A program made the translations under genes and the position numbers. The notes under the pieces were generated by a model. It was given only the letters and a program-made list of their open reading frames with translations. It had not been told where the DNA came from and did no database searches. 64,000 nt of DNA from an uncultured Actinomycetota bacterium (GTDB lineage: Bacteria; Actinomycetota; Actinomycetes; Mycobacteriales; Micromonosporaceae). How positions within the stretch are numbered: position 1 is the stretch's first letter; each line of letters opens with the position of its first letter. The stretch covers positions 484,713-548,712 of the forward strand of contig CAWFFM010000001.1 in assembly GCA_963815125.1 (NCBI GenBank). Direction: 5' to 3'. Below, piece after piece: positions 44,834-51,701 of this stretch.

Positions 44834-47767
44834 TCAACTGGCCGTACCGTGTACCAGAACCTCCCGGCTGTCGGCGAAGCTGCAACCGGACACCTGCTGA
44901 GTGGCGCAGCTGATGCCGTAGTCCTTCACCTGGGTGCCGAGGATGCTGTACCGCAGGTACAGCACCTTGTCCGTACCGGCGGTCAGGCTCACCGTGCTGT
45001 ACTGGCCGAAGGTGGCCGGGGTGAAGTGCCCCTTGGCCGCCACCGTCCAGGTCGTGCCGTCGGTGGAGGTTTCCACCTGGTAGTCACCGGTCGACGCGGA
45101 CGGGTCGTCACCACAGGTGGCCGACGGGTCGATGCGTAGCTCGGTGATGTCCACCGGCGCGGGCAGCTGGACGGTCACGTGCCGCGGGTCGATGCCGACC
45201 CCGTCGGTACCGCCCACCGCGTCGGAACCCCAACCGTGGCCCTGCGTGGTGTCGTACAGTCCGTCCGGACCGCAGTCCGGGGTGTAGTCGGGGCCGTTGA
45301 AGTCGGCGACCTTGGCGCCACCGGACAGCGCGGCCCAGTCCCGGGTGAGGGTCCAGTTCGCGGTGTTGGCATGCGAGGCGATCGACACGGTCCGGGTGTC
45401 CGACTGCTCGTACCCGGGCCCGGTGGCGAACACCTTCGGGTAGGTGCCGGCCGGGATTCCGTTGATCGTGTAGCTGCCGTCGGCCCCGGTCACCCCGACG
45501 TAGTCGTCCAGGTAACCGGAGGCGTGCCCACCGAACGCGACCGTCGCGCCGGTCACCGGCTTGCCGGTGTCGCTGCTGACCTTTCCGGTCAGGCTTCCGG
45601 TCGGGGTGCCCGCGGTCGGCGGCAGGGTGAAGTCCTCCACCGGCTGGGTGTCGTTGCCGTCCAGAGCGCCGGCGAAGTAGCCCATGCCGCGGTGTGCGAA
45701 CACCTGCCAGATCTTGTGGTGCGCGTGCCCACCGTTGACCACGGTGTCGGCCTGCAGGATGGCGTTGCGCTCGTCCAGGAAGGACGGGTTGGCCGGGGAC
45801 AGCTCCATCGCCCGGGTGACCAGTGACTCGGCCCGCCTGCTGCCCAGCGCGTTACGCAGGTCCCACAGGGTTTCGGCCCAGATCTCACCGTCGGCGTGCA
45901 CCTCGGCACCGCGGCGGGAGATCTTGCCGAAGTCGCCGTACGTGTAGCCGCCGGAGCCGGCGTTCGCCGTACCGGGGCAGACCGAGGCCGCGGCACCGAC
46001 CGCGCAGTCCAGCGACTGGCTGCGGATGGTGTCGCCGTGCCCGACGTAGATGCCGATGTTGAGGTCACCGGACCTGCGTGGGTCGTCTTTGAAGTACTTC
46101 TGGTTCACCAGGAAGTCGTAGGCGTACCAGTCGCTCCAGGCCTCACCCATCGACCCGGCCTGCACGTTGCCCAGGGTGGACAGCCCACCGGCGTCGACCA
46201 CCAGCCGGTTGGACAGCCCGTGGGTGTATTCGTGGTACACCACGTCGGCCTCGTCACCGCCGTTGGACGGGATGAACCCGTCGGTCTGGTCGGCCGGGTC
46301 GTTCCACAGGTACATCTGCATGGTCGGCGCGTGCCCGTCGGGCGGCGTCGACATGTTGGCGTTGTCGGTGTGGTTGGAGTCCGGGAGCCCGTTCGCGGTG
46401 TCCGCCCCGTCGTCCGGCTGTGCCTGCACCGCGTCGTTGTCCCGGGCGTCGAAGTTGCCGGCCGCCCGGGTGAATCCGATCGGCGCCGCCGCCAGGTGGT
46501 CGTGGTACTTACCGAGGTAGTAGAAGACCTGGACCGCGTTCTGCTTTCGGTTGGCCTGCCACGAGTTGGCCGTGTTCGGGTCCCACGAGCACTGGTACGC
46601 GGCCGAGCAGCCCTTCCCGGGGTTCTGCGTGTTCTGCGCCACGAACGGGAAGGTGAAGTTGCCGTCGCTGTTGGCAGGTACCTCCTCGCCGGTGTCGGCC
46701 TTGTTGTTGTCGTTGACGTCGGAGTACACGTGCGCGTTGGTGCCGTCGAGGGTGCTGGATCCGGCCGGCAGCCACCCGGGGGTGGTGAGGTTACGTGCCG
46801 ACTGCTTGCCGCCCTTGGCCGCACCCGGGTAGTTGTCCCAGGCCAGACCCTGCTGGGCGACGTCGTGGACCAGGTCCTGGCGGTACAGCACCCGACCGGA
46901 CTGCGCGTCGATGACATGCAGGTACATCGACCCCTTGGCCGGTGTGGTCAGCGTCTGCCAGGCCAGTCGGGGGCCGGCCAGCGTCTGGAAGACCACCTGT
47001 CCGGCGGTGTCACCGTCGGCGAAGGTCGTCACGGAGGAACCGGCGTTGCGGGAACTGACCTTGGCCGGGGTCGCTCCGGCGTTTCGTACCGCGGCGTCGC
47101 GTGCCGCGACCGCGGACAGCTTGGCCGAGCCGATGCTGCCGGGCAGGTTCGCCACCGGCGAGCCCAGCACGCTGATCAGCCGACCGTTGCGGCTGACGTT
47201 GGCCTGCAGACCGTTGCCGAACACCGGCACGCCGTGCACGCTCTGTACGAAGGACAGGTGGTGGGTGCCGTCGACGTCGACGTAGTCACGACGCAACGTC
47301 AGATCCGACACCGCCCCGGCGGTCAGGCCGAACACGTCGGGTCGGCCACGCACGTAGTCCAGCGCGATGCTGGCGGGCTTCCCGTTGCTGGCGCCGGTGA
47401 GGAAACCCCCGGTGTTCGCGACCTGCCGTGCGGTACCGGTCAGCGGATCGATGTCGACGATCCCCTCGGTGCCCAGTTGGCTGCGGAGGCTGACGACACC
47501 TGCCTTGGGATGCGTGGCCGAGCGGGTGTCCCGGGTGCTCAAAGCCCGTTTCGCGCCGGGGCCATCGCTACGTGCGTCGTAGTTGGCGAGGGTCAGGCCG
47601 GCCTGGTCGGCGCTGGCCGACGGGGACCTGTCCGCTGCGCGCGGTGCCGCCTGGGCCGGTAGCGCACCGGCCAGCAGCACCACTCCGCTGAGGCCTGCCA
47701 CTGCGGGGATTACCCGCCTTCGACGTCCGGGCGAAGCGCCCGGTACCTGCCGGAACCGTAGTGCCAT
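44834..47767 (-). CDS. secreted M36 (fungalysin-type) zinc metalloprotease with a propeptide, a carboxypeptidase-regulatory-like domain and a discoidin (F5/8 type C)-like C-terminal domain
   Basis: There is a signal peptide (RRRVIPAVAGLSGVVLLAGALPAQA) and an HExxH motif in VVYHEYTHGLSNRLV. The segment GEAWSDWYA follows downstream. The C-terminus has GSYTINGIPAGTY and sequence resembling a galactose-binding domain. Confidence 0.85.
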   Translation of the reverse strand: MALRFRQVPGASPGRRRRVIPAVAGLSGVVLLAGALPAQAAPRAADRSPSASADQAGLTLANYDARSDGPGAKRALSTRDTRSATHPKAGVVSLRSQLGTEGIVDIDPLTGTARQVANTGGFLTGASNGKPASIALDYVRGRPDVFGLTAGAVSDLTLRRDYVDVDGTHHLSFVQSVHGVPVFGNGLQANVSRNGRLISVLGSPVANLPGSIGSAKLSAVAARDAAVRNAGATPAKVSSRNAGSSVTTFADGDTAGQVVFQTLAGPRLAWQTLTTPAKGSMYLHVIDAQSGRVLYRQDLVHDVAQQGLAWDNYPGAAKGGKQSARNLTTPGWLPAGSSTLDGTNAHVYSDVNDNNKADTGEEVPANSDGNFTFPFVAQNTQNPGKGCSAAYQCSWDPNTANSWQANRKQNAVQVFYYLGKYHDHLAAAPIGFTRAAGNFDARDNDAVQAQPDDGADTANGLPDSNHTDNANMSTPPDGHAPTMQMYLWNDPADQTDGFIPSNGGDEADVVYHEYTHGLSNRLVVDAGGLSTLGNVQAGSMGEAWSDWYAYDFLVNQKYFKDDPRRSGDLNIGIYVGHGDTIRSQSLDCAVGAAASVCPGTANAGSGGYTYGDFGKISRRGAEVHADGEIWAETLWDLRNALGSRRAESLVTRAMELSPANPSFLDERNAILQADTVVNGGHAHHKIWQVFAHRGMGYFAGALDGNDTQPVEDFTLPPTAGTPTGSLTGKVSSDTGKPVTGATVAFGGHASGYLDDYVGVTGADGSYTINGIPAGTYPKVFATGPGYEQSDTRTVSIASHANTANWTLTRDWAALSGGAKVADFNGPDYTPDCGPDGLYDTTQGHGWGSDAVGGTDGVGIDPRHVTVQLPAPVDITELRIDPSATCGDDPSASTGDYQVETSTDGTTWTVAAKGHFTPATFGQYSTVSLTAGTDKVLYLRYSILGTQVKDYGISCATQQVSGCSFADSREVLVHGTAS

Positions 47768-47968: not shown

Positions 47969-48880
47969 ATGGCACAGCAATTCCTGACCGGCCCGGTACG
48001 GGTCCGAGTTCCGGCGACCAGCGCGAACCTCGGGCCCGGCTTCGACGCGCTCGGTCTCGCGCTGGGACTGTACGACGAGGTCGAGGCGCAGGTGTCCGGG
48101 GCCGGTGTCCGGGTGACGGTGACCGGTGAGGGCGCTGGTGTGCTGGCGCTCGACGAGCGTCATCTGGTGGCCCGATCCGCGTTGATGGTCTTCGACCGCA
48201 CGGGTGGCCGGCCCGCCGGGCTGGAGTTGCGCTGTGTCAACCGGATCCCGCATGCCCGGGGCCTGGGCTCATCTTCTGCCGCGATCATCGCCGGCATGCT
48301 GCTTGCCCGGGCGCTGCTGCCGGACGGCGTACGGCGGCTGCCGGATGCCACTGTGCTTCGGTGGGCCGCCGAACGGGAAGGCCATCCTGACAATGTGGCG
48401 CCGTGTCTGTACGGTGGGTTCACCATCGCCTGGGGTGATCCGTCGGGTGCCCGCGCGGTACGACTCGACCCTGCGTCGCAGCTGCGCCCGGTGGCGCTGG
48501 TGCCCGAGCACCGGGCCCGTACCGAGGTGGCCCGCGGGGTGCTCCCCGACCAGGTCCCGCACGTCGATGCCGCGATCAACGCGGGCCGGGCGGCCCTGCT
48601 GGTCCACGCGCTGACCAGGGCGCCGCATCTGCTGATGCCGGCCACCGAGGACCGGCTGCATCAGCAGTACCGTTCCATGGTCATGCCGGACAGCCTGGCC
48701 CTGGTCCGGCGACTGCGTGCCGAGGGTGTCCCGGCTGTGATCTCTGGCGCTGGTCCGACCGTTCTCGCGTTCGTTTCTGCTGGTCAGAGCGTTGAAGATG
48801 GTCTTGGTGGACAAAATCGGCGCGGATTTGCGACACTGCCGCTGACTGTCGACCAGCGAGGCGCTACAGTTTGCTTCTGA
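47969..48880 (+). CDS. thrB: homoserine kinase (GHMP family)
   Basis: The motifs are VRVPATSANLGPGFDALGLAL, IPHARGLGSSSAAIIAG (GHMP motif II) and ISGAGPTVLAF. Confidence 0.95.
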   Translation: MAQQFLTGPVRVRVPATSANLGPGFDALGLALGLYDEVEAQVSGAGVRVTVTGEGAGVLALDERHLVARSALMVFDRTGGRPAGLELRCVNRIPHARGLGSSSAAIIAGMLLARALLPDGVRRLPDATVLRWAAEREGHPDNVAPCLYGGFTIAWGDPSGARAVRLDPASQLRPVALVPEHRARTEVARGVLPDQVPHVDAAINAGRAALLVHALTRAPHLLMPATEDRLHQQYRSMVMPDSLALVRRLRAEGVPAVISGAGPTVLAFVSAGQSVEDGLGGQNRRGFATLPLTVDQRGATVCF

Positions 48881-49147
48881 GAGGTCCCGTGGCTCGGGTC
48901 CGGCGGTTTCCGCCGAACGCATCGGTTACGTGGCCGTCGGCGATAGCTGCCCTCCCCGAGTTCGGCGCCGGTCCAGCCAGGGCGCGGTGTTCGACACGCG
49001 GGAAGATATCCGGGTCTGATGTTGTTGCCCCAGGTAGCTGTCGACGACTACGCTCAACGGTGGTACAAGCGCCCGTCGTGATCTCCCCGGGCAAGTGTCT
49101 CCCCTGGGACAGTGCTTCCAGCGCAGTCCTATCAAGGGGGCGGGGTA

Positions 49148-49357
49148 CTTCCCCGCCAGGCAGGGACTTTCCGGAGAGACAGAGCTTCTCGAAAGACGGG
49201 CTTCCCGAGAGACAGGCTTCCCAAGAGGCAGGGCTTCCACGAGACAAAGTTTCCATGAGACGGGTTTCCGAAGGACTGTTTTCCTGGGGGCAAGTAATCC
49301 CGGGAGCATGGTGCTCCGAGACTGAAGCTCCGGAGGCATGTTTTCCGAGACGCGTCG
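49148..49357 (+). repeat. degenerate tandem array with a period of about 16 nt, consensus YTTCC-NN-GAGAC-RGG, in the rho leader
   Basis: Pyrimidine cores start at 49149, 49169, 49186, 49202, 49218, 49235, 49251, 49266, 49281, 49297, 49314, 49328 and 49343, giving spacings of 14-20 nt that are mostly 15-17 nt. Weaker units extend the array to about 49095 and 49440. A period that is not a multiple of 3, together with weak GC3 in all frames, argues against coding. Confidence 0.8.
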
Positions 49358-49682
49358 CGGGCCGCCTGTGAGGGTGGAGCGTGGGCACGCTTCGGAAGAC
49401 ATCGTCTTTCCGTCAGGCAATGCGTTCCGGCAGGCATGCGCTGCACACGGGAAGAGGACCACCGATGCGGTACCCCTGCACTCCAACGGGCCTGGTAACG
49501 GTCGGTTGAGTTCGGTGGCGTGGTCTGGACCGGTTGCCGTCAGGCGGTCGTGGTCCGGTACACCGCCGGACAGCAGCAACCTTCGACGCGGGCGAGGAGC
49601 GTGCGGCGAAGGTGTACCCGCGGTCCGGCGATCTGCATTGCCACATCCGCCGTACCGCGGTCAGAACGAGGGAAGGAATCCA

Positions 49683-51701
49683 TTGAGCGACACTACCGAC
49701 CTGAAGTCGGGATCGCCCGACGCCGAAGTGGGCACCGAGCAGCCGTCCGCGGCGGGTGGCGCCAGCCGCCGTCGTCGCAGCGGCACCGGTCTGTCGGCGA
49801 TGCTCCTGTCGGAGTTGCAGACCCTGGCTTCGTCGCTCGGCATCTCGGGCACCGGCAGGATGCGCAAGGGCGAGCTGATCGCCGCCATCCAGGACAAGCA
49901 GCAGGGTGGTGCCGGGGCGGCGTCCGAAGGTCGGGTACCTGGTCCGCGCCAGGCCGAGCACGCCGCTGCCGGTAGGTCGGCCGGTTCGGCCGATGCTGCT
50001 GCTGCGGGCGGCGACCACGGTGCGGCGCAGCAGGCGTTGCCCGGCACCGACGGATCGGCTGCCGGTGGCCGCACCCGGCAGCGGGCCAACCGTTCGGCCG
50101 GCGCGTCCTCCCGGCAGCCGGACACCGATTCGGCTGAGCGCACCGATCGTGGCGAGCAGAGCGACCGTACGGAGCAGGCGACCCGCCCGGAGCGCGACCG
50201 CGGTGGTAACGACCGTGGCGGTAACGAGCGCAGCAGCGATCGCAGCGGTAACGACCGCAACAGCGACCGTGGCGGCAGCGACCGTGGCGGTAACGACCGT
50301 GGCGGTAACGACCGCCAGCGCGGCGGCAGCGACCGCAACAGCGATCGCGGTGGCAACGACCGTGGCGGCAACGACCGTGGTGGCAACGACCGCAACAGCG
50401 ATCGTGGCGGTAACGATCGCGGTGGCAACCGACATGACGACGAGGGCGAGGGCGGCGGTCGTCGCCGTGGCCGCCGGTTCCGGGACCGTCGTCGTACCGG
50501 CGGTAGCGGTAGCGGCAGCGGTGGTGGCCGGGAACGCGGGAACGACAACGAGCCCGCCGTGGCCGACGACGACGTCCTGCTGCCGGTCGCTGGCATCGTC
50601 GACATCCTCGACAACTACGCGTTCATCCGTACCAGCGGTTACCTGGCCGGACCGAACGACGTGTACGTGTCGATGTCGCAGATCCGCCGCTACGGCCTGC
50701 GCCGTGGTGACGCGGTCACCGGTGCGGTGCGTCAGGCCCGTGAGGGTGAGCAGCGACGGGACAAGTACAACCCGTTGATGCGGCTGGACACCATCAACGG
50801 CATGGACCCCGAGGAGTCCAAGCGCCGGCCGGAGTTCTACAAGCTGACGCCGCTCTACCCGCAGGACCGCCTGCGGCTGGAGACCGAGTCGAACATCGTC
50901 ACCACCCGCATCATCGACCTGATGACGCCGATCGGGAAGGGTCAGCGCGCGCTGATCCTCAGCCCGCCGAAGGCCGGCAAGACGCTGGTGCTGCAGGCGA
51001 TCGCCAACGGGATCACCACCAACAACCCCGAGGCGTTGCTGATGGTCGTACTGGTCGACGAGCGGCCCGAGGAAGTCACCGACATGCAGCGGTCGGTGAA
51101 GGGCGAGGTCATCGCGGCCACGTTCGACCGGCCGCCGGCAGACCACACCACGGTCGCCGAGCTGTCCATCGAGCGGGCCAAGCGGATGGTGGAGCTGGGC
51201 CACGACGTGGTCGTGCTGCTCGACTCGATCACCCGGCTCGCCCGGTCGTACAACCTGGCCGCCCCGGCCAGCGGGCGGATCATGTCCGGTGGTCTGGACT
51301 CGACCGCGCTGTACCCGCCGAAGCGGTTCCTGGGCGCGGCGCGCAACATCGAGAACGGCGGCTCGCTGACGATCATCGGTACCGCGCTGGTCGAGACCGG
51401 CTCGGTGATGGACACGGTGATCTTCGAGGAGTTCAAGAGCACCGGCAACGCCGAGCTGCGGCTGGACCGCAAGATCGCCGAGAAGCGGGTCTTCCCCGCT
51501 GTCGACGTGAACGCCTCCAGCACCCGCCGTGAGGAGATCCTGCTGGCCCCCGATGAGCTGGCGATCGTGCACAAACTGCGCCGGGTGCTGCACGCACTCG
51601 ACCCGCAGCAGGCCATCGACCTTCTTCTCGACCAGATGAAGAAGACGAAGACCAACGCGGAGTTCCTGATGCAGATCGCGAAGTCCACTCCGGGCGAGTA
51701 G
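49683..51701 (+). CDS. rho: transcription termination factor Rho with a large Arg/Gly/Asp/Asn-rich N-terminal insertion
   Basis: The TTG at 49683 lies 5 nt after GGGAAGGA and gives LSDTTDLK...RRRRSGTGLSAMLLSELQTLASSLGISGTGRMRKGELIAAI, the typical actinobacterial Rho N-terminus. The motifs are the Walker A PPKAGKT, the RNA-binding domain GYLAGPNDVYVS and FPAVDVNASSTRREE. The ORF region upstream (49338-49682) has poor GC3. Confidence 0.95.
   Translation: MSDTTDLKSGSPDAEVGTEQPSAAGGASRRRRSGTGLSAMLLSELQTLASSLGISGTGRMRKGELIAAIQDKQQGGAGAASEGRVPGPRQAEHAAAGRSAGSADAAAAGGDHGAAQQALPGTDGSAAGGRTRQRANRSAGASSRQPDTDSAERTDRGEQSDRTEQATRPERDRGGNDRGGNERSSDRSGNDRNSDRGGSDRGGNDRGGNDRQRGGSDRNSDRGGNDRGGNDRGGNDRNSDRGGNDRGGNRHDDEGEGGGRRRGRRFRDRRRTGGSGSGSGGGRERGNDNEPAVADDDVLLPVAGIVDILDNYAFIRTSGYLAGPNDVYVSMSQIRRYGLRRGDAVTGAVRQAREGEQRRDKYNPLMRLDTINGMDPEESKRRPEFYKLTPLYPQDRLRLETESNIVTTRIIDLMTPIGKGQRALILSPPKAGKTLVLQAIANGITTNNPEALLMVVLVDERPEEVTDMQRSVKGEVIAATFDRPPADHTTVAELSIERAKRMVELGHDVVVLLDSITRLARSYNLAAPASGRIMSGGLDSTALYPPKRFLGAARNIENGGSLTIIGTALVETGSVMDTVIFEEFKSTGNAELRLDRKIAEKRVFPAVDVNASSTRREEILLAPDELAIVHKLRRVLHALDPQQAIDLLLDQMKKTKTNAEFLMQIAKSTPGE
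50196..50429 (+). repeat. in-frame 15-nt tandem repeats (GACCGTGGCGGTAAC-like) encoding about 15 DRGGN/DRNSD pentapeptides inside rho
   Basis: The encoded sequence is DRGGNDRGGNERSSDRSGNDRNSDRGGSDRGGNDRGGNDRQRGGSDRNSDRGGNDRGGNDRGGNDRNSDRGGNDRGGN, read directly from the sequence. Confidence 0.9.

What the first reader, a model, noticed from the sequence alone, without database searches (positions are those of the whole stretch)
48881..49682. An about 800-nt rho leader carrying an array with 16-nt periodicity of CTTCC-GAGAC-AGG units whose CTTCCC cores are complementary to the rho ribosome-binding site
**Seen in the sequence:**
- Between thrB (ends 48880) and the rho TTG start (49683) there is no convincing coding frame. 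GC3 is weak and the repeat period is not a multiple of 3.
- From about 49148 to 49357 at least 13 consecutive units repeat every 14-20 nt, mostly 15-17 nt. Examples are TTTCCGGAGAGACAGAG, CTTCTCGAAAGACGGG, CTTCCCGAGAGACAGG, CTTCCCAAGAGGCAGGG, CTTCCACGAGACAAAG, TTTCCATGAGACGGG and TTTCCGAAGGACTGT.
- Weaker copies lie at 49095-49147 and 49391-49440.
- The rho SD region is GAGGGAAGGAA (49668-49678), so the CTTCCC/TTTCC cores are its exact complement.

**Established knowledge:** rho is autoregulated by attenuation in its own leader in E. coli and other bacteria. The Rho primary binding sites grip regularly spaced pyrimidine (YC) dinucleotides.

**Inference:** There are two alternatives:
- The array could be a periodic multi-YC landing platform for the Rho hexamer. 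This is an autogenous rut site, although the units are not G-poor as classical rut sites are.
- The array could be a set of redundant anti-SD elements that sequester the rho RBS.

I am not aware of such an array being described.
Basis: partly seen in the sequence, partly recalled or inferred. Interest (0 to 1): 0.65.

Follow-up and report, generated by a model that had tools for sequence, protein, structure and literature searches.

The report
Repeat array in rho leader RNA
The long untranslated RNA in front of the gene for the termination factor Rho in this actinomycete carries 13 tandem 16-base units, each a pyrimidine core plus a purine-rich half, and it most likely lets Rho bind its own message and limit its own production.

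Summary
Between thrB (ends 48880) and the rho TTG (49683) lies an 802-nt non-coding spacer. At 49148-49357 it holds 12 clear units and 1 degenerate unit of YTTCC-N(0-5)-RAGRC-RRG. The period is 16 nt (autocorrelation z = 6.9) and this is the only such cluster in 64 kb. A promoter conserved across the family (TTGCCC-18-TACGCT, predicted TSS about 49060) puts the array inside a 5' UTR of about 620 nt. The bipartite unit recurs in all 10 relatives of the Actinocatenispora clade, at 1 to 17 copies and periods of 15-20 nt. It is absent from Micromonospora, Plantactinospora and Dactylosporangium, which share the promoter, the 3' hairpin region and an identical SD. The array is low in GC and weakly structured, with no C>G bias, as reported in 2026 for Rut sites of full-length M. 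tuberculosis Rho, whose R/G-rich insertion domain is proposed to contact GA-rich motifs while YC-rich motifs are captured around the hexamer. This Rho has a 229-aa R/G-rich insertion. Best reading (0.45): an autogenous, multivalent Rho-loading platform. The complementarity to the SD is real, but folding predicts almost no pairing with it. A near-neutral repeat expansion remains a serious rival. Nothing has been tested experimentally.

The parts
47969..48880 (+). thrB (homoserine kinase), the upstream gene
   Evidence: ORF. GHMP_kinases_N and _C domains. The M36 peptidase - thrB - rho - EamA gene order recurs in relatives.
49025..49054 (+). Putative rho promoter: -35 TTGCCC (49025-49030), 18-nt spacer, -10 TACGCT (49049-49054). 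The predicted TSS is about 49060.
   Evidence: The block is invariant in all clade members. The same TTGCCx-18-TAC(G/T)CT arrangement is present in Micromonospora, Plantactinospora, Dactylosporangium and L010. The generic sigma-70 scan did not call it. The TSS is inferred, not mapped.
49060..49147 (+). Start of the leader, with three weak units at 49084, 49100 and 49116 (CTCCCCGGGCAAGTGT, CTCCCCTGGGACAGTG, CTTCCAGCGCAGTCC)
   Evidence: Leader positions +1 to about +45, which include the first two units, are nearly identical in the clade. The third unit and the rest of the stretch are shared only with L001 and partly L007. The three units are spaced 16 nt apart.
49148..49357 (+). Main tandem array: 12 clear units and 1 degenerate unit of YTTCC-N(0-5)-RAGRC-RRG, period about 16 nt
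   Evidence: Whole-unit indels against L001. GC in the 1st-3rd percentile and folding energy in the 92nd-98th percentile (least stable) of 983 windows. Fold z-score -0.43.
49408..49440 (+). Two further 17-nt units (TTCCGTCAGGCAATGCG, TTCCGGCAGGCATGCG)
   Evidence: TRF period 17, 2.0 copies, score 50. Family D5.
49358..49667 (+). Structured 3' part of the leader, including hairpins at 49579-49613 and 49618-49660 directly before the SD. It is the likely zone where captured polymerases would be released.
   Evidence: Whole-leader fold z = -3.8. Inverted repeats I13 and I5. On 9 clade sequences 90.5% of cells are paired, against 36-48% when the partners are slid, and 5 pairs carry compensatory changes. 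The role in termination is inferred.
49668..49685 (+). Shine-Dalgarno GAGGGAAGGAA (49668-49678) and TTG start (49683-49685)
   Evidence: CGAGGGAAGGA is identical in every relative examined except L010 (CGAAGGAAGGA), including genera without the array; a few other positions vary, such as GGATTCC in L008 and L019 and TCCTTTG in L007. Mean predicted unpaired probability is 0.60.
49683..51701 (+). rho (672 aa): Rho_N at aa 37-73, insertion domain at aa 74-302 (nt 49902-50588), Rho_RNA_bind at aa 303-377, ATPase at aa 408-613
   Evidence: Pfam scan. The insertion is 23% G, 18% R and 13% D, with 11 RGG and tandem DRGGN repeats. Closest named homologues are Actinocatenispora Rho at 73-79% identity.

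Best explanation
The array is a cis-acting RNA element in a 5' UTR of about 620 nt on the rho mRNA. It works as a multivalent loading (Rut) platform for the cell's own Rho.

Proposed mechanism:
1. Each 16-nt unit offers a single-stranded pyrimidine core (YUUCC, containing UC and CC dinucleotides) to the primary RNA-binding cleft of one Rho protomer.
2. The adjacent purine-rich half (GAGAGACAGG) is offered to the arginine/glycine-rich disordered insertion domain.
3. Six consecutive units (about 96 nt) would span one hexamer. Thirteen to seventeen units give many binding registers, or room for more than one hexamer.
4. When Rho is abundant it loads on the array, translocates through the roughly 320 nt of untranslated, hairpin-rich leader that follows, and releases RNA polymerase before the rho start codon. 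This gives negative feedback.
5. Unit gain and loss by slippage would shift the set-point.

Shown here: the array, its periodicity, its uniqueness in the window, its likely position in the UTR, its composition and weak folding, and its recurrence in relatives with variable copy number.

Inferred: transcription from the predicted promoter, Rho binding, termination and feedback.
For: 1. Location. The array sits downstream of a promoter conserved across the family and upstream of an invariant SD and TTG. rho is autoregulated by Rho-dependent terminators in its leader in E. coli, Salmonella, B. subtilis and Caulobacter (PMC11599450).
2. Unit anatomy. Each unit is a 5-nt YC-containing core plus a GA-rich half. 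Full-length M. tuberculosis Rho selects Rut sites that carry a YC-rich and a more frequent GA-rich motif. The authors' model has YC-rich motifs captured around the hexamer and the disordered R/G-rich NIDs contacting GA-rich motifs (PMC13650167). E. coli Rho protomers each hold 5 consecutive nt joined by loosely constrained linkers, and the optimal Rut length is 60-90 nt (PMC12360218).
3. Composition. The array windows are in the lowest 1-3% for GC and in the 92nd-98th percentile for weak folding, with no C>G bias and average YC content. These are the features reported for full-length MtbRho Rut sites. The array folds no better than shuffles (z = -0.43), whereas the whole leader does (z = -3.8).
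4. This Rho has a 229-aa R/G/D-rich insertion with 11 RGG.
5. Signs of selection:
- The unit CTTCCCGAGAGACAG is kept in lineages whose surrounding leader cannot be aligned.
- Arrays with different unit lengths (16, 18, 19 and 16-21 nt) occur on at least 4 branches of the Rho tree.
- Units within the array differ far more from each other than orthologous units differ between the two sister genomes, yet they keep both half-motifs.
- The motif is strand-specific and unique in the 64-kb window.
Against: - There is no experimental datum. The TSS, Rho binding and termination are all inferred.
- Copy number ranges from 1 to 17 within one clade, and the array is absent from sister genera with the same promoter, hairpin region and SD. 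It is therefore dispensable for rho expression as such.
- Relatives with about 3 units cannot fill a hexamer.
- Per-nucleotide unpaired probability in the array (0.32) is no higher than elsewhere, and the cores are predicted to be mostly paired (0.26), although weakly.
- Low GC and weak folding are generic to non-coding DNA in a high-GC genome.
- The MtbRho motifs are known to me only as 'YC-rich' and 'GA-rich' from text and legends, not as matrices. M. tuberculosis is also a distant relative.
- The same spacer also accumulates unrelated 17-nt repeats (L005 and L002). This points to a local propensity for repeat expansion.
Confidence: 0.45

Rival explanations
1. Near-neutral tandem-repeat (VNTR-like) expansion. 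The variable middle of a long, tolerant 5' UTR is prone to replication slippage, and a short ancestral element was amplified without acquiring a function that depends on copy number.
For: - Differences between the window and its sister MAG are whole-unit indels.
- Copy number runs from 1 to 17 in the clade.
- Unrelated 17-nt tandem repeats occur in the same spacer in A. thailandica (L005 2639-2687) and in Dactylosporangium (L002 4992-5154, upstream of the promoter).
- Genera without the array keep the same promoter, hairpin region and SD.
Against: - Units have diverged strongly from each other yet keep both half-motifs and the G before the core.
- A single well-kept copy persists in lineages where the flanks cannot be aligned.
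- Expansions recur on several branches with different unit lengths but the same motif.
- The motif is strictly strand-specific.
Confidence: 0.2
2. The array is a binding or processing platform for a trans-acting factor other than Rho. Candidates are another RNA-binding protein, a small RNA or a ribonuclease. For example, mycobacterial RNase E is reported to prefer cutting 5' of C in RN|CNU (recalled from memory), which many GG|CUU unit junctions fit. Such a factor would control rho mRNA stability or translation.
For: - Periodic, strand-specific motifs in a UTR are the hallmark of multimeric RNA-binding factors.
- The conserved C of RAGRC and the G before the core suggest more sequence specificity than Rho is usually credited with.
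- The cores are predicted to be only weakly structured.
Against: - No candidate factor is encoded next to the locus.
- No Rfam family matches.
- The RNase E motif carries little information and fits only the C-initiated units.
Confidence: 0.2
3. Redundant anti-SD elements. CUUCC(C) cores pair with GGGAAG in the rho ribosome-binding site and repress translation.
For: - CTTCCC is the exact complement of 49670-49675.
- The array holds 8 complementary 5-mers against a window mean of 0.95, which puts it in the top 0.3% of segments.
- Unit-SD duplex energies range from -6.5 to -13 kcal/mol.
- In A. sera and L009 the SD has a 0.33-0.39 probability of pairing with an upstream UCCUCCCC.
Against: - In the window and L001, which have the largest arrays, the SD pairs with far-upstream sequence at only 0.03-0.05 probability and is 0.60 unpaired.
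- Two conserved hairpins with covariation lie between the array and the SD and leave the SD free.
- L008 units keep the GA half but lose the SD-complementary core.
- The identical SD exists without any array in three other genera.
- Any YC-rich motif is complementary to a purine-rich SD, so the match is an expected by-product.
- Thirteen copies are not needed to mask one site.
Confidence: 0.1
4. DNA-level element. The repeats are binding sites for a transcription factor or nucleoid protein that acts as a roadblock or silencer downstream of the rho promoter.
For: - The array is the lowest-GC stretch of the region, at 55-61% against 69%.
- It lies at +88 to +300 relative to the predicted TSS.
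Against: - A 16-bp period is 1.5 helical turns and varies from 15 to 20 bp between lineages. This does not suit cooperative DNA binding.
- The units are not palindromic.
- The purine/pyrimidine asymmetry is strictly strand-specific.
Confidence: 0.05

Closest known systems
Autogenous Rho-dependent attenuators in the rho leader of E. coli and Salmonella (also B. subtilis and Caulobacter)
   Same: Both have a long untranslated leader in front of rho. The proposed logic is also the same: Rho terminates its own transcript before the coding region (PMC11599450).
   Different: The E. coli trxA-rho leader has no tandem repeat (TRF finds none and the best autocorrelation is z = 2.9). It is annotated with a leader peptide, rhoL. 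Here there is a 210-nt periodic array, no conserved uORF, no C>G bias, and a Rho with a large insertion domain.
Rut sites of full-length M. tuberculosis Rho defined by Helicase-SELEX (Do et al., NAR 2026, PMC13650167)
   Same: Both have lower GC, weak structure, no C>G bias and no YC enrichment. Both combine YC-rich and GA-rich short motifs, and both involve a Rho with an R/G-rich disordered insertion.
   Different: The MtbRho sites are described as loosely defined peaks with 6-nt enriched motifs, not as regular tandem arrays, and nothing is reported there for the rho leader itself. The organism here is a distant actinomycete and no binding data exist.
TRAP-binding (G/U)AG triplet array in the B. 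subtilis trp leader (from general knowledge)
   Same: The two would work alike. A ring-shaped homo-oligomer reads a periodic array of short RNA motifs separated by loosely constrained spacers in a 5' leader, and this decides whether transcription continues.
   Different: The protein, motif and period differ (11 triplets spaced 2-3 nt apart). TRAP acts through an anti-terminator/terminator switch and not through a translocase.
Artificial polypyrimidine-repeat Rho terminators and the lambda tR1 rutA/rutB sites (from general knowledge; review PMC12360218)
   Same: Repeated pyrimidine motifs are sufficient to recruit Rho. Each protomer engages 5 nt, with linkers in between.
   Different: Those sites are C-rich and G-poor, have a period of about 9-10 nt per protomer, and contain no purine-rich half-unit.
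Intergenic VNTR/MIRU-type tandem repeats of actinobacteria (from general knowledge)
   Same: Copy number varies between close relatives through whole-unit indels.
   Different: MIRU units are 40-100 bp and dispersed at many loci. Here the units are 16 nt, confined to one UTR, strand-specific, and their motif is kept across a clade.

Membership tests
Rho utilisation (Rut) site, classical E. coli definition | C>G compositional bias (C-rich, G-poor) | tested here: not met
   C-G runs from -0.03 to -0.14 across the array windows, which is the 4th-43rd percentile of the window. The consensus unit has C about equal to G.
Rho utilisation (Rut) site, classical E. coli definition | Limited secondary structure over 60-90 nt or more | tested here: inconclusive
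   Folding energy is in the 92nd-98th percentile (least stable) and no better than shuffles. Per-base unpaired probability, however, is the same as elsewhere (0.32).
Rho utilisation (Rut) site, classical E. coli definition | Regularly spaced YC dinucleotides available to the six primary binding sites | tested here: met
   UC and CC dinucleotides in YUUCC cores recur every 14-20 nt over 210 nt.
Rut site of insertion-domain (NID) Rho as described for M. tuberculosis (PMC13650167) | Lower GC and less stable structure than the genomic background, with no C>G bias and no YC enrichment | tested here: met
   GC is in the 1st-3rd percentile, folding energy in the 92nd-98th percentile, C-G is not positive, and YC is in the 23rd-50th percentile. 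Compare.
Rut site of insertion-domain (NID) Rho as described for M. tuberculosis (PMC13650167) | Presence of the enriched YC-rich and GA-rich 6-nt motifs | tested here: inconclusive
   The units are YUUCC plus GAGAGACAGG. The published motif matrices appear only in a figure and no supplement is held, so the match is qualitative.
Rut site (any definition) | Binds Rho and causes Rho-dependent release of RNA polymerase downstream | not testable with these tools
   This needs binding and termination assays, or Term-seq with Rho depletion.
Autogenous rho leader attenuator | Element lies in the transcribed, untranslated leader of rho | tested here: inconclusive
   A conserved promoter is predicted 88 nt upstream of the array, and there is no conserved ORF over it. 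The TSS has not been mapped.
Anti-Shine-Dalgarno sequestering element | Complementarity to the SD of the regulated gene | tested here: met
   CTTCCC against GGGAAG. Complementary 5-mers are enriched about 8-fold.
Anti-Shine-Dalgarno sequestering element | Pairing with the SD predicted and maintained across relatives | tested here: not met
   Pairing probability is 0.03-0.05 in the window and L001. L008 cores are not complementary. The same SD occurs without an array in 3 genera.
Known RNA families (Rfam 15) | Match to a curated covariance model | tested here: not met
   The best E-value is 3.1 and all hits fall far below their gathering scores.

The most novel reading that the evidence does not exclude
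The array is a natural, evolvable, 'modular' Rut site. Each 16-nt unit is the footprint of one protomer of an insertion-domain Rho, with the YUUCC core in the primary binding cleft and the GA-rich half on the RGG-rich disordered domain. Slippage-driven gain and loss of units then tunes the homeostatic set-point of Rho. With 13-17 units the leader could bind several hexamers at once and nucleate multivalent Rho-RNA assemblies. It would be the first sequence-defined, periodic recognition code for a Rho factor.
Probability: 0.25. Interest if true: 0.8.

Novelty: new variant of a known kind. Interest (0 to 1): 0.6.

Why it matters
What Rho recognises in RNA has been hard to define for decades, and it is least clear in high-GC actinomycetes, whose Rho carries a large disordered insertion. 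A recent model proposes that YC-rich motifs are captured around the Rho hexamer while the insertion domains contact GA-rich motifs.

A natural array that repeats exactly such a bipartite unit 13-17 times, in front of the rho gene itself, would be a ready-made substrate to test that model:
- Unit number, core, purine half and spacer length can each be varied.
- Nature has already done part of that experiment across the clade (1-17 units, periods of 15-20 nt).

It would also extend rho autoregulation to Actinomycetota and show a way in which the feedback strength of an essential global regulator can drift quickly. If the array turns out to be a neutral repeat, it is a cautionary example of how a periodic motif can mimic a binding platform.

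Tried and rejected
- **Rfam at a permissive threshold over 48500-50000:** only chance-level hits.
- **Generic sigma-70 and intrinsic-terminator scans:** nothing found. The promoter was found by comparative alignment instead.
- **Coding potential of the array:** rejected. Indels against the sister genome are 38, 31 and 14 nt.
- **Leaderless uORF starting at GTG 49060:** its length varies from 24 to 185 codons, it covers the array in only some genomes, and its start is absent in L010 and in other genera.
- **In-frame upstream ATG at 49338 (787-aa extended Rho):** rejected. Every relative keeps the same SD and TTG, and the annotated homologues start there.
- **thrB-based scan of species genomes:** only 3 loci returned.
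- **Metagenome scan with the invariant promoter 20-mer:** it re-found one known contig plus 4 unrelated low-GC chance matches.
- **One Rho homologue's contig (P0012):** no DNA was available.
- **Family-wide alignment of the 3' leader including Micromonospora and Dactylosporangium:** it misaligned and gave no usable consensus. Restricting it to the clade worked.
- **Supplementary tables of the MtbRho Rut study:** not held, so I could not check for a Rut peak upstream of M. tuberculosis rho or obtain the motif matrices.
- **Correlation between unit number and Rho length:** none is evident. Rho is 638-673 aa across genomes with 1-17 units.
Full report
**1. The observation**

The window comes from a high-GC actinomycete. 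Its closest named relatives by Rho are Actinocatenispora species (73-79% identity).

thrB (47969-48880) and rho (TTG 49683 to 51701) are separated by 802 nt. Within this spacer, pyrimidine cores (YTTCC, twice GCTCC) start at 49148, 49168, 49185, 49201, 49217, 49234, 49250, 49265, 49280, 49313, 49327 and 49342. One degenerate unit sits between 49280 and 49313.

Each core is followed, after 0-5 nt, by RAGRC and then RRG. Typical units are CTTCCCGAGAGACAGG and TTTCCATGAGACGGG.

- Tandem Repeats Finder reports the best-preserved part with period 16 (score 87) and period 33 (score 98).
- Sequence autocorrelation of 49140-49360 peaks at lag 16 (z = 6.9) and at lag 32 (z = 3.8) against 1000 dinucleotide-preserving shuffles.
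- The bipartite motif occurs 10 times in the leader against 0.32 expected.
- It forms the only cluster on either strand of the 64-kb window.
Three units lie at 49084-49131 and two 17-nt units at 49408-49440.
- The SD and start coordinates are as stated.

One correction applies: only CTTCC(C) is the exact complement of the SD, not TTTCC.

**2. Context from relatives**

I obtained the thrB-rho spacer from 10 other members of the clade:
- a sister MAG, L001 (Rho 91% identical);
- two Actinocatenispora MAGs, L006 and L007;
- A. sera (L004) and A. thailandica (L005);
- five metagenome contigs (L008-L011 and L019).

I also obtained it from Plantactinospora, Micromonospora and Dactylosporangium.

All of them share a block that reads as a promoter. 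In the window it is -35 TTGCCC (49025-49030), an 18-nt spacer and -10 TACGCT (49049-49054). The same arrangement is kept in the three other genera. This predicts a transcription start near 49060, so the array would lie in a 5' UTR of about 620 nt, at +88 to +300.

The core of the SD and the start region (CGAGGGAAGGA..TCC.TTGAGCGACAC) is the same in all of them, apart from GAAGG in L010 and single-base changes between the SD and the start codon in L007, L008 and L019. Immediately upstream, within the clade, lie two hairpins (49579-49613 and 49618-49660). They are supported by covariation: 90.5% of cells are paired against 36-48% when partners are slid, and five pairs show compensatory changes. 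A hairpin at the equivalent position is apparent by eye in Micromonospora and Plantactinospora, but the family-wide alignment misaligned, so it was not tested there.

Between these conserved ends the leader cannot be aligned, and this is where the units sit.

**3. Distribution of the unit**

| Lineage | Units | Period |
|---|---|---|
| Sister MAG L001 | 17 | 15-16 nt |
| Window | 13 | 16 nt |
| L007 | about 6 | about 18 nt |
| L006 | about 7 | 15-20 nt |
| L008 | about 6 | about 19 nt |
| A. sera group (L004, L005, L009, L011) | about 3, including a well-kept CTTCCCGAGAGACAG | no significant periodicity |
| L019 and L010 | 1-3 | none |
| Micromonospora, Plantactinospora, Dactylosporangium | 0 | none |

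- The window and L001 differ by three indels of 38, 31 and 14 nt, that is 2, 2 and 1 whole units. The rest of the array is about 95% identical.
- In L008 the cores have drifted to TTCGC, TTCTG and TTTCG, but the GAGAC half is retained.
- The three outgroup genera have leaders of only 280-420 nt.
- On a Rho tree, multi-unit arrays with different unit lengths sit on at least four branches.

The array therefore evolves by gain and loss of units. The motif itself is older than the clade's radiation and has been amplified repeatedly. The non-triplet indels, and the lack of any conserved reading frame over the array, exclude a coding function.

**4. Physical character**

- The array is the lowest-GC part of the region (55-61% against 69%).
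- Its 130-nt windows fall in the 1st-3rd percentile for GC and in the 92nd-98th percentile for weak folding energy among 983 windows.
- There is no C>G bias and the YC content is average.
- It folds no better than its shuffles (z = -0.43), whereas the leader as a whole is strongly structured (z = -3.8).
- Per-base unpaired probability is not elevated (0.32). The cores are predicted to pair weakly with the purine halves.

**5. Mechanism**

rho is autoregulated through Rho-dependent terminators in its own leader in E. coli, Salmonella, B. subtilis and Caulobacter (PMC11599450). That objection no longer holds for this phylum.

What is known about Rho-RNA recognition:
- A Helicase-SELEX map for M. 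tuberculosis found that Rut sites of full-length Rho lack C>G bias and YC enrichment. They are lower in GC and less structured than the background, and they carry a YC-rich motif and a more frequent GA-rich motif.
- The authors propose that YC-rich motifs are captured around the hexamer while the disordered, arginine/glycine-rich insertion domains contact GA-rich motifs. Alternatively, the two motif types may hybridise and be opened by the insertion domain (PMC13650167).
- In E. coli each Rho protomer holds five consecutive nucleotides, joined by linkers whose length and sequence are loosely constrained (PMC12360218).

The unit described here has that anatomy. It has a 5-nt YC-containing core and a GA-rich half, with a spacer that varies within and between lineages. 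The Rho encoded downstream carries a 229-aa insertion with 23% G, 18% R and 11 RGG.

I therefore rank the autogenous Rut platform first (0.45). Rho would load on the array, translocate through the untranslated hairpin-rich 3' leader, and release polymerase before the start codon. All steps after the sequence anatomy are inferred.

**6. Rivals**

- **Anti-SD masking (0.1).** The complementarity is real and enriched. However, folding gives only a 0.03-0.05 probability of SD pairing with far-upstream sequence in the two largest arrays. The SD is 0.60 unpaired. Conserved hairpins insulate it. L008 keeps units that no longer match the SD. The same SD exists without arrays elsewhere. Any YC-rich motif will look like an anti-SD.
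- **Near-neutral repeat expansion (0.2).** It is favoured by the copy-number volatility and by unrelated 17-nt repeats in the same spacer in A. thailandica and Dactylosporangium. It is disfavoured by motif retention across diverged units and lineages.
- **Another RNA-binding factor or a ribonuclease (0.2).** This cannot be excluded.
- **A DNA-level role (0.05).** It fits poorly with a variable 15-20-bp period and strict strand asymmetry.

**7. Comparison and novelty**

- The E. coli rho leader has no tandem repeat and is annotated with a leader peptide.
- No Rfam family matches.
- Literature searches found no description of a periodic array in a rho leader.
- The array fails the classical compositional criterion for a Rut site, meets the criteria reported for insertion-domain Rho, and cannot be tested here for the defining property, which is Rho binding and termination.

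I classify it as a new variant of a known kind: an autogenous rho leader element or Rut site with a periodic, modular architecture.

I set interest at 0.6. A specialist would want to test it at once, because it offers a natural substrate for the current model of Rut recognition by insertion-domain Rho. Against this, the function is unproven, the array is lineage-specific, and a neutral origin is a live alternative.

Noticed in passing
L002 4992-5154 (Dactylosporangium sp. CA-052675): A different 17-nt tandem repeat (GTGGGCCGTGCCGCACC, 9.6 copies, TRF score 175) lies between thrB and the conserved rho promoter. It is upstream of the predicted TSS, so it would not be in the leader unless thrB reads through.
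   Followed up: partly
L005 2639-2687 (Actinocatenispora thailandica): An unrelated 17-nt tandem repeat (TCGGAACGCAGTGCGAC, 2.9 copies) is inserted in the rho leader and is absent from A. sera. The middle of this leader seems to be a hotspot for short tandem repeats with a period of 16-17 nt.
   Followed up: partly
window 49902-50588 (rho codons 74-302): The Rho insertion domain is itself repetitive. It has tandem DRGGN/DRNSD pentapeptides, 11 RGG, and 23% G, 18% R and 13% D, followed by ADDDV just before the RNA-binding domain. TRF also sees an 18-nt DNA repeat at 50154-50193.
   Followed up: partly
window 48996-49011, 49445-49460 and 49666-49681: There are three copies of a 16-nt box containing GGGAAG: ACGCGGGAAGATATCC, ACACGGGAAGAGGACC and ACGAGGGAAGGAATCC. 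The last is the SD. The first lies just upstream of the -35 and is kept as CGGGAAGACATCC or CGGGAACACATCC in most of the clade. The meaning is unknown and it may be chance.
   Followed up: no
window 49006-49023; clearer in L004-L009 (ACATCC-N5-GGATGT): A short inverted repeat abuts the -35 of the rho promoter in most clade members and is degenerate in the window itself. It could be an operator or the end of the thrB transcript.
   Followed up: no
window 49060-49371: A possible leaderless ORF starts at GTG at the predicted TSS (VVQAPVVISPGKC...). It would run across the whole array (103 codons) here, but it stops after 24-31 codons in L006-L008 and has no start in L010. It is not conserved as a protein, but its translation could affect Rho access if it is real.
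   Followed up: partly
window 49060-49100 and the homologous positions in L002, L010, L012 and L013: The first 40 nt or so of the leader share a motif across the family: ACAGCCGC ... GCGATCTC ... (C/G)GGG. This looks like a conserved 5' hairpin with a GAUCUC loop, and it extends beyond the Actinocatenispora clade.
   Followed up: no
window 48893-48960: An imperfect 24-nt inverted repeat (71% complementary) and a perfect CGGCGG-TTT-CCGCCG hairpin (48901-48915) lie just after the thrB stop codon, with no U tract. They are a candidate thrB terminator of the kind common in actinomycetes.
   Followed up: no
window 44834-47767 (minus strand): A 977-aa secreted M36 (fungalysin-type) metalloprotease with FTP, CarboxypepD_reg and F5/F8 type C domains is divergently placed upstream of thrB. 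The gene order M36 protease - thrB - rho - EamA recurs in four of the clade loci (L004-L007).
   Followed up: no
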